1,256 nucleotides of DNA. It comes from Naegleria gruberi. Its lineage: Eukaryota. Made by a program: the position numbers and the translations under genes. The stretch lies in NCBI GenBank assembly GCA_000004985.1, contig GG739470.1. One strand, given 5' to 3'. Of this stretch, positions 1 through 1,256 are shown one piece after another. The notes beneath the pieces were generated by a model, which had not been told where the DNA came from, made no database searches, and worked only from the letters and a program-made list of their open reading frames with translations. Each line of letters begins with the position of its first letter. The first letter of the stretch is position 1.

Positions 1-221
1 TTGATGTAAAATTGATCCAAATCAGCAAATTCTAATTTCTGATTTAAATTCGTTAATTGTAAAATTGATTTTTCATAATAATCCCAAATTAATTCATAGC
101 AAATTCGTTGCCAATATTTACAAACTCGAGAGAAGGTAACAAGTAATTCTACATGACTGATATGAGAGAGAATTTCTCCGATCAAATCGTTGGGTAAAAC
201 TTCAAAGATGTTTTGCGCCAT
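1..221 (-). CDS. F-box domain protein, N-terminal portion. Partial CDS: the start codon is at 221..219 and the gene continues past the left window edge.
   Basis: The reverse-complement of 1..221 translates without a stop as MAQNIFEVLPNDLIGEILSHISHVELLVTFSRVCKYWQRICYELIWDYYEKSILQLTNLNQKLEFADLDQFYI (73 codons plus 2 nt). Residues 9-40 match the F-box consensus LPxE/DLxxxILxxLxxxxLxxxxxVCKxW, with an aromatic W-D-Y-Y after it. On the minus strand the ATG sits in an A-rich context (aaaaaaaaaaATGGCG). There is an in-frame TAA at 272..270 upstream with no ATG in between, so this is the first available start. Local GC rises to about 37% over 121..221 against about 20-27% in the intergenic DNA. The ORF is absent from the supplied track, presumably because it is short and has no stop inside the window. 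Confidence 0.8.
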   Translation of the reverse strand, partial: MAQNIFEVLPNDLIGEILSHISHVELLVTFSRVCKYWQRICYELIWDYYEKSILQLTNLNQKLEFADLDQFYI

Positions 222-230
222 TTTTTTTTT
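221..230 (+). repeat. T10 homopolymer, which reads as A10 on the minus strand directly abutting the F-box ATG
   Basis: Read directly: tttttttttt at 221..230. Position 221 is also the A of the minus-strand ATG. Confidence 0.95.
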
Positions 231-261
231 TACTAATTTTTTCAGAAAACTTTTTGTAAAG

Positions 262-278
262 TTTGAATATTATTCAAA
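262..278. promoter_or_regulatory. Perfect inverted repeat tttgaata-t-tattcaaa (8-bp arms, 1-nt spacer). Candidate dimeric transcription-factor site in the proximal upstream region of the F-box gene.
   Basis: The reverse complement of 262..269 equals 271..278 exactly. It lies 41-57 bp upstream of the minus-strand ATG. A related aatattcaa copy occurs at 287..295. Confidence 0.3.
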
Positions 279-484
279 TTGCAACCAATATTCAATACAC
301 AATTGGGAAAAAACAAAAACCTGTAAAATAAAAATTGGTTTCCAGTGGAAACAAATGCTTAGGATTATCATTTTGTATTTAAGGAATTTAACAGCTGAAG
401 GTTATCTATACGGATTCTATATATTAGATTTTGATCATTTTTTGCCAGTTTTTATGATTTTACATATTTTAGTTTGTTATCTCA

Positions 485-498
485 ATATATATATATAT
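485..498. repeat. (AT)7 dinucleotide microsatellite
   Basis: atatatatatatat read directly from the sequence. Confidence 0.95.
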
Positions 499-774
499 TT
501 CAAATGTAAACCCCACTTATTAATTAGTAGCTTAATTCTTTATAGTTATAAATGGAGAAAAACCTAAATTATTGATCAATAGGAGTTGCTTAATGATTAC
601 TAAAACATAAAAATTGTTCAAGATGAATAGAAACATTATCAGACTCGTATCATTTCATTCTGTTGGTATTCTGTTAAAATACCTTTTACCACTTAAACAC
701 AAAGAAGAACAATTCTTGGAGTTTTTTTGCAAACTTTCCCCCTTACTGTAGTGCAATAAAAATTGAACATTCAA

Positions 775-788
775 ATATATATATATAT
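775..788. repeat. (AT)7 dinucleotide microsatellite
   Basis: atatatatatatat read directly. It is flanked by ttcaaat on the left, a heptamer that also sits immediately right of the 485..498 array. Confidence 0.95.
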
Positions 789-858
789 TGATAAAAATAG
801 AACTCGTTACTAATTTCACAACACAACACCCCATAAATTGGATAGTTGTAATTTTCTA

Positions 859-870
859 ATATATATATAT
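859..870. repeat. (AT)6 dinucleotide microsatellite
   Basis: atatatatatat read directly. Confidence 0.9.
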
Positions 871-1078
871 AACAGAATTATTATAATATTCGCCTTATTT
901 AAGGTGTTCTATTAGTTTTCTATCTAGTAATTTAACTTTAATGTTGGTATGTTTTGCTTTTCAAAGAGAAAATCTTACTAAATAATCTTGAATGTAATCT
1001 CTCCTGTTACTTTTCACCCTTATTGAATAATATTTTCTTGATTGCTCTCCTTTTTTGAGAAGAAGTTTGGGTAACCAA

Positions 1079-1086
1079 ATATATAT
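1079..1086. repeat. (AT)4 short dinucleotide run, 16 bp upstream of the candidate ATG at 1102
   Basis: atatatat read directly. It could double as a TATA-like element if the 5' UTR is very short. Confidence 0.7.
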
Positions 1087-1101
1087 TTTCATTTATTTAA
1101 C

Positions 1102-1256
1102 ATGGCTAAAAAAAATACAGTAAATTTCAATTTCTGCATTAATTGGATTGTAGAGGGTCCATATTTACTGAGGGTGTTGAAGGCTTACCTTTTCAGGAAG
1201 TTTGTACAACATGATTTATTGTTCTCTCCTAAAAAACCTGTAATGGGATGTTTGAA
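1102..1256 (+). CDS. Candidate 5' end of a protein-coding gene. Hypothetical protein, partial, continuing past the right window edge.
   Basis: ATG at 1102 in the context aacATGGCT. The frame stays open for 51 codons to the window edge: MAKKNTVNFNFCINWIVEGPYLLRVLKAYLFRKFVQHDLLFSPKKPVMGCL. There is an in-frame TAA at 1072..1074 upstream and 1102 is the first ATG after it. G is enriched at first codon positions (about 22%) relative to bulk G content. The last 60 nt are GC-richer than the intergenic DNA. I recognise no domain. An alternative minus-strand reading of the same bases exists (see findings). Confidence 0.3.
   Translation, partial: MAKKNTVNFNFCINWIVEGPYLLRVLKAYLFRKFVQHDLLFSPKKPVMGCL

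What the first reader, a model, noticed from the sequence alone, without database searches (positions are those of the whole stretch)
1..221. Canonical F-box motif encoded on the minus strand, missed by the ORF track
The antisense translation of the first 221 nt gives a stop-free 73-codon N-terminus. It contains nearly every conserved F-box position: LP-x-D-L-x-x-E-I-L-x-x-I-x-x-x-E-L-L-x-x-x-x-V-C-K-x-W-x-x-I. It starts at an ATG in an A-rich context. A match this specific is not expected by chance in AT-rich DNA. F-box proteins are the substrate adaptors of SCF ubiquitin ligases. The substrate-binding C-terminal domain (LRR, WD40, FBA, kelch and so on), which would define the subfamily, lies outside the window, so the function cannot be narrowed further. 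Many low-GC eukaryotes carry large, fast-evolving F-box families, so this could be a lineage-specific paralog.
Basis: partly seen in the sequence, partly recalled or inferred. Interest (0 to 1): 0.5.

Follow-up and report, generated by a model that had tools for sequence, protein, structure and literature searches.

The report
F-box start of Naegleria Rab-like gene
The left end of the window really does encode an F-box, and it is the first 73 codons of a member of a Naegleria-specific gene family, already described in 2021, that joins an F-box to a divergent Rab-like GTPase domain, so it is a new copy of a known kind and not a new kind of thing.

Summary
Minus strand 221..3 is an open 73-codon reading frame that starts at an ATG preceded by ten A's. 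It scores above Pfam's curated cut-offs for F-box-like (34.2 bits against 24.3) and F-box (33.5 against 20.5). The ORF track missed it only because the frame runs off the window's left end.

It can be inferred. The peptide is 81% identical (47 of the first 50 residues) to the manually corrected Naegleria gruberi model XP_002670359.1*. It is 53-62% identical to N. gruberi XP_002677004.1 and XP_002671413.1. These proteins have the layout F-box, then a helical linker, then a divergent Rab-like GTPase domain. That domain has Pro in place of the catalytic Gln, TKxD instead of NKxD, and no prenylation cysteines. Herman et al. 2021 (PMC8296547, supplement) described this Naegleria-only clade and its birth-and-death evolution.

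Base composition and 81% DNA identity to N. gruberi-like contigs point to a Naegleria of the gruberi group. I could not extend the contig. The downstream GTPase domain, and whether the gene is intact, are therefore inferred (about 0.7) and not shown.

Verdict: a new member of a known kind, of modest interest.

The parts
3..221 (-). First 73 codons (start ATG at 221..219) of an F-box/Rab-like GTPase family gene. The frame continues beyond the left end of the window.
   Evidence: Translation. Open to the window end. 81% identical to N. gruberi XP_002670359.1*. 53-62% identical to P0001, P0011, P0131 and P0132.
84..203 (-). F-box domain proper (residues 7-46: EVLPNDLIGEILSHISHVELLVTFSRVCKYWQRICYELIW).
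   Evidence: PF12937 at 34.2 bits over residues 7-46 and PF00646 at 33.5 bits over residues 9-41, both above their gathering cut-offs. Aligns to the F-box of FBXL17 in PDB entries 8uah and 6w66.
3..83 (-). Start of the family-specific linker that follows the F-box (residues 47-73, DYYEKSILQLTNLNQKLEFADLDQFYI). Includes the conserved Y49 and the DL-x-x-F motif.
   Evidence: Alignment A1: Y49 is invariant, F71 is nearly invariant, and DLDQF is shared with XP_002670359.1* and P0011.
222..231 (-). Run of ten A's immediately 5' of the start codon (short A-rich leader).
   Evidence: Read directly from the sequence. The closest homologue XP_002670359.1* starts with the same MAQNIFEV, which supports this ATG as the start.

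Best explanation
Window 221..3 (minus strand) is the 5' end of a protein-coding gene from a Naegleria amoeboflagellate of the gruberi group. The gene belongs to the Naegleria-specific clade of F-box/Rab-like GTPases. Shown: the start codon, a bona fide F-box (residues about 7-46), and the first about 27 residues of the clade's conserved linker. Inferred from every full-length relative: the reading frame continues to the left of the window through a helical linker of about 100 residues (G-x-K-F-x-K-Y-L-L-R-K ... W-V-D-x-E-L-x-I-L-K-G-Y-F), a Ser/Asn/Thr-rich spacer, and a divergent Rab-like GTPase domain. That would give an intronless protein of about 360-390 residues. Proposed mechanism (inference from what is established for F-box proteins; not tested for this family): the F-box docks onto Skp1 and so onto a Cul1-Rbx1 ubiquitin ligase core. 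The GTPase-like domain takes the place normally held by LRR or WD40 repeats. In this clade the P-loop and switch I are kept, but Pro replaces the catalytic Gln (WDQCGPERF instead of WDTAGQERF), TKxD replaces NKxD, the SAK motif is lost, and there is no C-terminal prenylation cysteine. The domain therefore probably binds nucleotide but hydrolyses it poorly and is soluble. It would act as a nucleotide-state-dependent receptor that brings partners to the ligase, or it would mark the protein itself for rapid turnover.
For: F-box: Pfam scores above the curated cut-offs, and PDB sequence hits are all F-box proteins, with FBXL17 best at E 0.002-0.009. Family: an exhaustive phmmer search gives N. gruberi XP_002677004.1 (P0001) as best hit, E 4e-12 and 60% identity. 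Identity is 81% to the corrected N. gruberi model XP_002670359.1* in Table S8 of PMC8296547, and both begin MAQNIFEVLPNDLIGE. Architecture of relatives: P0001 and P0010 carry F-box plus Ras/Roc Pfam domains. P0131, P0132 and P0010 are single uninterrupted ORFs on environmental contigs L003, L002 and L001. GTPase motif changes were read from an alignment with canonical Rab6 and Rab8. Origin: ORF GC3 is 0.27 and ORF GC 0.30, against 0.28 and 0.34-0.35 for the N. gruberi-like genes in L002 and L003. DNA identity is 81% over 99 nt with L003 and 72% over 163 nt with L002. Literature: Herman et al. 2021 describe three Naegleria-only Rab-like clades with an N-terminal F-box and propose GTPase-dependent ubiquitination.
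Against: Nothing to the left of nt 1 could be recovered, so the GTPase domain and the intactness of this copy are unproven. Herman et al. note that some clade members carry disrupting mutations. One relative, N. lovaniensis P0008 (229 aa), is annotated without a GTPase domain. The exact peptide is absent from the curated N. gruberi NEG-M GTPase table and from the protein collections. The last three residues (FYI) depart from the family's F-L-x-S. Structure prediction was too poor to confirm the three-helix F-box fold. No member of this family has been shown to bind Skp1.
Confidence: 0.72

Rival explanations
1. It is a pseudogene or truncated relic: an F-box-bearing 5' fragment left by the birth-and-death turnover of this gene family, with the downstream part disrupted or deleted.
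For: Herman et al. report that some members of the three Rab-like clades are disrupted, which suggests recent birth-and-death evolution. This copy is absent from their GTPase-centred N. gruberi table, as a copy without a GTPase domain would be if the window came from strain NEG-M. Divergence from the closest paralogue is concentrated after residue 50, and the last residues (FYI) depart from the family consensus. The upstream spacer of 880 nt is long compared with about 110-270 nt in L002 and L003.
Against: The 73 codons hold no stop or frameshift. All F-box core positions are intact, and 47 of the first 50 residues match a curated paralogue. The start codon is conserved. Differences from L003 are somewhat enriched at third codon positions (16 against 9 and 9, weak evidence).
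Confidence: 0.17
2. It is an intact gene of the same F-box lineage but with a different or no C-terminal domain (an F-box-only protein or a new fusion), not a Rab-like GTPase.
For: N. lovaniensis P0008 (229 aa) has the F-box and linker but no GTPase domain in its annotated model. [quoted passage not shown]
Against: The N-terminus matches specifically, at 81%, one Rab-like clade member whose corrected model has the GTPase domain. Five more relatives show the same architecture. P0008 may simply be a truncated gene model.
Confidence: 0.08
3. It is a chance F-box-like pattern in AT-rich non-coding DNA, or an F-box gene of a bacterium (such as Legionella) or a giant virus that mimics host proteins.
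For: An open frame of this length is not unusual in this composition. Legionella and giant viruses of amoebae do carry F-box genes, and in Legionella some Rab-domain proteins carry an F-box.
Against: Two Pfam models pass their curated cut-offs. There is 81% identity over 72 aligned residues to a Naegleria protein, extending beyond the F-box into the family-specific linker. There is no relative in 2.9 million viral contigs. Composition and DNA-level identity match N. gruberi-like contigs.
Confidence: 0.02

Closest known systems
Naegleria gruberi XP_002670359.1* (manually corrected model, Table S8 of Herman et al. 2021, PMC8296547) and its clade (XP_002677004.1, XP_002671413.1, XP_002674580.1*)
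   Same: Same start (MAQNIFEVLPNDLIGE). 58 of 72 aligned residues are identical, and 47 of the first 50. Same F-box subtype and same start of the linker (DLDQF). Same low-GC codon usage.
   Different: Not the same gene: residues 51-73 diverge (EKSILQLTNLNQKLEFADLDQFYI against EESFTHITNNPKQVFVDLDQFLHS). The window copy is not in the curated NEG-M list. Its C-terminal part is unseen.
Canonical F-box proteins of SCF ligases (Skp2, FBXL17, Fbw7; Pfam PF00646 and PF12937)
   Same: The roughly 40-residue F-box with the L-P start, a hydrophobic core, and C-K-x-W near the end. The presumed function is docking onto Skp1.
   Different: In this family the substrate-binding module is not LRR, WD40, kelch or FBA but a Rab-like GTPase domain (inferred for the window copy). 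Skp1 binding is untested.
TbFRP of Euglenozoa (FYVE + F-box + Ras-like GTPase; PMC3593210)
   Same: An F-box placed N-terminal to a small-GTPase domain in a discoban protist. Its authors link the F-box to rapid turnover.
   Different: TbFRP has an N-terminal FYVE domain. The window ORF starts only 6 residues before the F-box, so it has none. That paper found no N. gruberi orthologue. The fusion is likely independent.
Rab40 (Rab + SOCS box, Cul5 adaptor) and RhoBTB (Rho + BTB, Cul3 adaptor); from general knowledge, with RhoBTB also mentioned
   Same: A small GTPase domain fused to a module that recruits a cullin-RING ubiquitin ligase. This is the best functional analogy.
   Different: A different adaptor module (F-box, so Cul1 through Skp1). 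The domain order is reversed relative to Rab40 and RhoBTB, where the GTPase domain is N-terminal. No homology outside the GTPase fold. Rab40 is prenylated and this clade is not.
Legionella Rab-domain effectors with F-box or U-box (bioRxiv 10.1101/350777)
   Same: The same pair of domain types occurs in some effectors of amoeba-infecting bacteria.
   Different: Those are bacterial genes. The window's composition and its 81% identity to a Naegleria nuclear gene argue against this origin.

Membership tests
F-box domain (Pfam PF00646 / PF12937) | Profile-HMM score above the curated gathering threshold | tested here: met
   PF12937 at 34.2 bits (cut-off 24.3) and PF00646 at 33.5 bits (cut-off 20.5).
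F-box domain (Pfam PF00646 / PF12937) | Signature positions: the L-P dipeptide at the start, regularly spaced hydrophobic residues (L13 I14 I17 L18 I21 L26), and V-C-K-x-W near the end | tested here: met
   Read from the translation. Aligned column by column with FBXL17 (LPPSILLKIFSNLS...LVCKYWRDLC). L9, P10, L26 and V33 are invariant across the family alignment, and I14, C34 and W37 are nearly invariant.
F-box domain (Pfam PF00646 / PF12937) | Three-helix fold | tested here: inconclusive
   The AlphaFold2 model from a 5-sequence alignment has pLDDT 68 and shows one long helix, which is not interpretable.
F-box domain (Pfam PF00646 / PF12937) | Binds Skp1 and assembles into an SCF complex | not testable with these tools
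   Needs a pull-down or co-expression with Naegleria Skp1.
Naegleria F-box/Rab-like GTPase clade (Herman et al. 2021) | Conserved N-terminal extension homologous to clade members, including the region after the F-box | tested here: met
   81% identity to XP_002670359.1*, 53-62% to P0001, P0011, P0131 and P0132, and 46% over 70 residues to P0002.
Naegleria F-box/Rab-like GTPase clade (Herman et al. 2021) | C-terminal divergent Rab-like GTPase domain (GxxxxGKT, TIGxDF, WDQCGPERF, TKxD) | not testable with these tools
   It would lie left of nt 1. The contig could not be extended. It is present in relatives.
Naegleria F-box/Rab-like GTPase clade (Herman et al. 2021) | Encoded in a Naegleria (Heterolobosea) genome | tested here: inconclusive
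   The evidence is indirect. All close homologues are Naegleria or N. gruberi-like environmental contigs. GC3 and DNA identity match L002 and L003. The source record itself is unknown.
TbFRP family (Euglenozoa) | N-terminal FYVE domain preceding the F-box | tested here: not met
   The ORF starts at M1, and the F-box begins at residue 7. There is an in-frame stop 17 codons upstream. No FYVE hit in Pfam.
FBXL / FBXW / kelch / FBA classes of F-box proteins | LRR, WD40, kelch or FBA domain C-terminal to the F-box | not testable with these tools
   Outside the window. The close relatives P0001, P0010, P0012 and P0013 have none of these domains and only Ras/Roc/Arf-type hits.

The most novel reading that the evidence does not exclude
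The window holds an uncatalogued, intact paralogue (or the orthologue in another strain) of a family in which a hydrolysis-impaired, non-prenylated Rab-like domain serves as the nucleotide-gated substrate receptor of an SCF (Cul1) ubiquitin ligase. That would be a third, independently evolved way of wiring a small GTPase to a cullin ligase, alongside Rab40-Cul5 and RhoBTB-Cul3, and it would be expanded by rapid gene turnover at the amoeba's interface with its environment.
Probability: 0.3. Interest if true: 0.5.

Novelty: new member of a known kind. Interest (0 to 1): 0.25.

Why it matters
For genome annotation, this is one more case where the F-box exon or N-terminus of a Naegleria GTPase gene is absent from public protein sets. 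Herman et al. had to correct many such models by hand, and this copy is in neither their table nor a 15-billion-protein collection. For biology, the family it belongs to suggests a direct link between small-GTPase signalling and SCF-type ubiquitination. That link has never been tested experimentally. This single 73-codon fragment adds a sequence to the family but no new principle.

Tried and rejected
1. I first thought the window was the missing N-terminus of the truncated N. gruberi model XP_002674580.1 (P0014, 245 aa). This was rejected: the corrected model in Table S8 starts MRLSNIFQILPHDLIKEIL..., which is a different F-box.

2. The word-index protein search with the 73 residues found nothing, although P0001 shares many 5-mers. 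That negative is therefore not informative. The exhaustive phmmer search found the family.

3. Attempts to extend the contig all failed:
- viral contigs;
- JGI metagenome contigs, using degenerate patterns that would also have matched the window itself;
- exact-product look-ups of N. gruberi proteins;
- look-ups of two complete but probably spurious ORFs of the window, in case a gene caller had recorded them on a longer contig.

4. A chimeric query (window 73 aa + the rest of XP_002670359.1* + the right-end ORF) returned only P0001, P0011 and P0014. So there is no full-length copy of this gene and no homologue of the right-end ORF.

5. AlphaFold2 on the 73 residues (pLDDT 68) and on full-length P0001 (pLDDT 40), each with a 5-sequence alignment, was too poor to use. 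No fold search was run.

6. Rfam, tRNA, tandem-repeat and repeat scans of the window found nothing beyond (TA)n runs.

7. The ciliate genetic code was considered and rejected. The F-box frame is open in the standard code and its homologues are Naegleria genes.

8. Codon-position counts against L002 and L003 were too few and too diverged to measure selection.

Full report
**Observation**

The window is 1256 nt with about 26% G+C. The reverse complement of nt 1..221 translates without a stop into 73 residues: MAQNIFEVLPNDLIGEILSHISHVELLVTFSRVCKYWQRICYELIWDYYEKSILQLTNLNQKLEFADLDQFYI.

- The ATG lies at 221..219, directly after a run of ten A's.
- The frame is open for 16 more codons upstream, to a stop at 272..270.
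- The frame leaves the window at its left end.
- The ORF listing omits ORFs that run off an end, so "missed by the ORF track" has a trivial cause.

**Is it more than chance?**

Frame length alone is not convincing. In 2000 dinucleotide-preserving shuffles of the window, 8.7% hold an open stretch of at least 89 codons and 31% hold one of at least 73. The content of the frame is what counts:

- Pfam F-box-like (PF12937) scores 34.2 bits against a curated cut-off of 24.3 (E 2.2e-8, residues 7-46).
- Pfam F-box (PF00646) scores 33.5 bits against a cut-off of 20.5.
- Every significant or near-significant PDB sequence match is an F-box protein: FBXL17, KDM2B, Skp2 and Fbw7. A family profile again finds FBXL17.

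**What it is**

The word-index protein search found nothing, and viral contigs gave nothing. An exhaustive phmmer search of 1.84 billion representative proteins found ten hits.

- The best hit is P0001 (E 4e-12, 60% identity over residues 4-58).
- P0002, P0008 and P0010 align beyond the F-box.
- P0001 is Naegleria gruberi XP_002677004.1, named 'rab family small GTPase'.
- P0001 and P0010 carry an N-terminal F-box plus a C-terminal Ras/Roc-type GTPase domain.
- Other relatives are N. gruberi XP_002671413.1 (P0011), XP_002674580.1 (P0014), and N. fowleri and N. lovaniensis proteins (P0012, P0013, P0008).
- There are also near-identical environmental copies: P0131 is 98% identical to P0001, and P0132 is 99% identical to P0011.
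- On their contigs (L001-L003) these genes are single uninterrupted ORFs.

**Literature**

Herman et al. 2021 (BMC Biol 19:142, PMC8296547) re-annotated the Ras superfamily of Naegleria. Their Additional file 4 makes these points:

- There are three clades of divergent Rab-like genes found only in Naegleria.
- Each clade has a conserved N-terminal extension that is recognisable as an F-box in at least some members.
- The F-box is the commonest extra domain on Naegleria GTPases (Rab, Rho, Ran, G-alpha), "pointing to GTPase-dependent ubiquitination".

Their Table S8 lists a manually corrected model, XP_002670359.1*, that begins MAQNIFEVLPNDLIGEVLSHISHVELLVTFSQVCKYWQRICYELIWNYYEESFTHITNNPKQVFVDLDQFLHSKEGKKF.... 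The window peptide is identical to it at 58 of 72 aligned positions (81%) and at 47 of the first 50. The exact window peptide is not in that table, and no other entry shares HVELLVTFS or VCKYWQRIC.

The window is therefore a close paralogue of XP_002670359, or its orthologue in another strain or species of the gruberi group. It is not that gene itself.

My earlier idea was that the window supplies the missing N-terminus of the truncated model P0014. It was refuted: the corrected XP_002674580.1* starts MRLSNIFQILPHDLIKEIL.

**Origin**

| Measure | Window | N. gruberi-like loci L002 / L003 |
|---|---|---|
| ORF G+C | 30% | 34-35% |
| ORF GC3 | 0.27 | 0.28 |
| Spacer G+C | 24.5% | not compared |

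BLASTN aligns the F-box coding part at 81% over 99 nt with L003 and at 72% over 163 nt with L002. This fits a Naegleria genome of the gruberi group. The source record was not identified.

**What lies beyond the window (inferred)**

All full-length relatives continue in the same way:

- a conserved helical linker (G-x-K-F-x-K-Y-L-L-R-K ... W-V-D-x-E-L-x-I-L-K-G-Y-F);
- a Ser/Asn/Thr-rich spacer;
- a Rab-like domain.

The Rab-like domain was aligned with canonical Rab6 and Rab8 sequences:

| Feature | Canonical Rab | This clade |
|---|---|---|
| P-loop | GxxxxGKT | kept |
| Switch I | TIGxDF | kept |
| Switch II | WDTAGQERF | WDQCGPERF (Pro replaces the catalytic Gln) |
| Guanine-specificity motif | NKxD | TKxD |
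| SAK motif | present | missing |
| C-terminal cysteines for prenylation | present | none |

The window peptide matches the family through the start of the linker (Y49, DLDQF). I therefore put the chance that this copy has the same architecture and is intact at about 0.7.

**Mechanism**

This is inference, consistent with the suggestion by Herman et al. The F-box docks on Skp1 and so on Cul1-Rbx1. The soluble, probably hydrolysis-impaired Rab-like domain occupies the substrate-receptor position. It would either recruit partners according to its nucleotide state, or make the protein itself short-lived.

The closest functional analogies, from general knowledge, are Rab40 (Rab + SOCS box, Cul5) and RhoBTB (Rho + BTB, Cul3). 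TbFRP of Euglenozoa (FYVE + F-box + GTPase) is a similar but separate fusion. It has a FYVE domain that the window ORF lacks, and its authors found no N. gruberi orthologue. Some Legionella Rab-domain effectors also carry F-boxes, but composition and homology argue against a bacterial origin here.

**Rivals**

- A pseudogene or truncated relic: about 0.17. The birth-and-death pattern and the divergent last residues count for it. The intact 73 codons and perfect F-box core count against it.
- The same F-box lineage with a different or no C-terminal domain: about 0.08. P0008 of N. lovaniensis lacks the GTPase domain in its annotated model.
- A chance match, or a bacterial or viral mimic: about 0.02.

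**What failed**

The contig could not be extended.

- N. gruberi products are not in the contig index.
- JGI metagenome contigs hold no relative.
- A chimeric query returned only P0001, P0011 and P0014.
- Look-ups of two complete ORFs of the window found no record.
- AlphaFold2 models from 5-sequence alignments were unusable (pLDDT 68 and 40), so no fold searches were run.
- Rfam, tRNA and repeat scans found only (TA)n runs.

**Verdict**

It can be sharpened: this is the N-terminus of a Naegleria F-box/Rab-like GTPase. The kind is already described at the sequence level, and this particular copy is not in the catalogues I could search. It is a new member of a known kind. Interest is about 0.25.

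Noticed in passing
window 1102-1254 (+), open from 1075 to the right end: A second reading frame starts at an ATG (MAKKNTVNFNFCINWIVEGPYLLRVLKAYLFRKFVQHDLLFSPKKPVMGCL) and runs off the right end. Its G+C is 33% against 24.5% in the spacer. It may be the start of a neighbouring gene transcribed divergently from the F-box gene. No homologue was found. The only Pfam hit is DUF7881_N at 15 bits, below its cut-off.
   Followed up: partly
window 166-564 (+), ATG at 208: This is the longest stop-free stretch in the window, at 133 codons, and only 0.1% of dinucleotide shuffles reach that length. The peptide is rich in F, I, Y, L and K. It has no Pfam hit. Its first 56 nt are antisense to the F-box gene's 5' end. 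No gene with this product is on record. It is probably a by-product of the T-rich strand (negative AT skew), but the length is statistically unusual.
   Followed up: partly
window 222-1101: The spacer between the two divergent candidate starts is 880 nt. That is several times longer than the roughly 110-270 nt spacers flanking the related genes in L002 and L003. It holds no tRNA, no Rfam match and no repeat other than (TA)n runs at 486-498, 775-789 and 860-871.
   Followed up: partly
relatives P0001, P0011, P0012, P0013 and P0010 (alignment A5): Across the whole clade the Rab switch II motif WDTAGQERF reads WDQCGPERF, so the catalytic Gln is replaced by Pro. NKxD reads TKxD, the SAK motif is deleted, and the C-terminal prenylation cysteines are absent. 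This suggests a soluble GTPase with impaired hydrolysis.
   Followed up: partly
L001 2130-3212 (JGI metagenome 3300002220) and P0002 (read set SRR3989338): More distant members of the same F-box/Rab-like family (34-46% identity to the window peptide) occur in environmental assemblies that are not assigned to Naegleria. L001 has 38.5% G+C. The family may therefore extend to other heteroloboseans.
   Followed up: no
The word-index search reported no candidate sharing three 5-residue words with the 73-residue query, although P0001 shares about 13 such words with it (IFEVLPN, LIGEILSHISHVEL). Negative results from that tool for short queries should not be trusted.
   Followed up: yes
P0040 (550 aa, ENA): An unrelated environmental protein combines an aspartyl/asparaginyl beta-hydroxylase domain (PF05118), an F-box and a Rab-like domain. 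It is another independent F-box/small-GTPase fusion.
   Followed up: no
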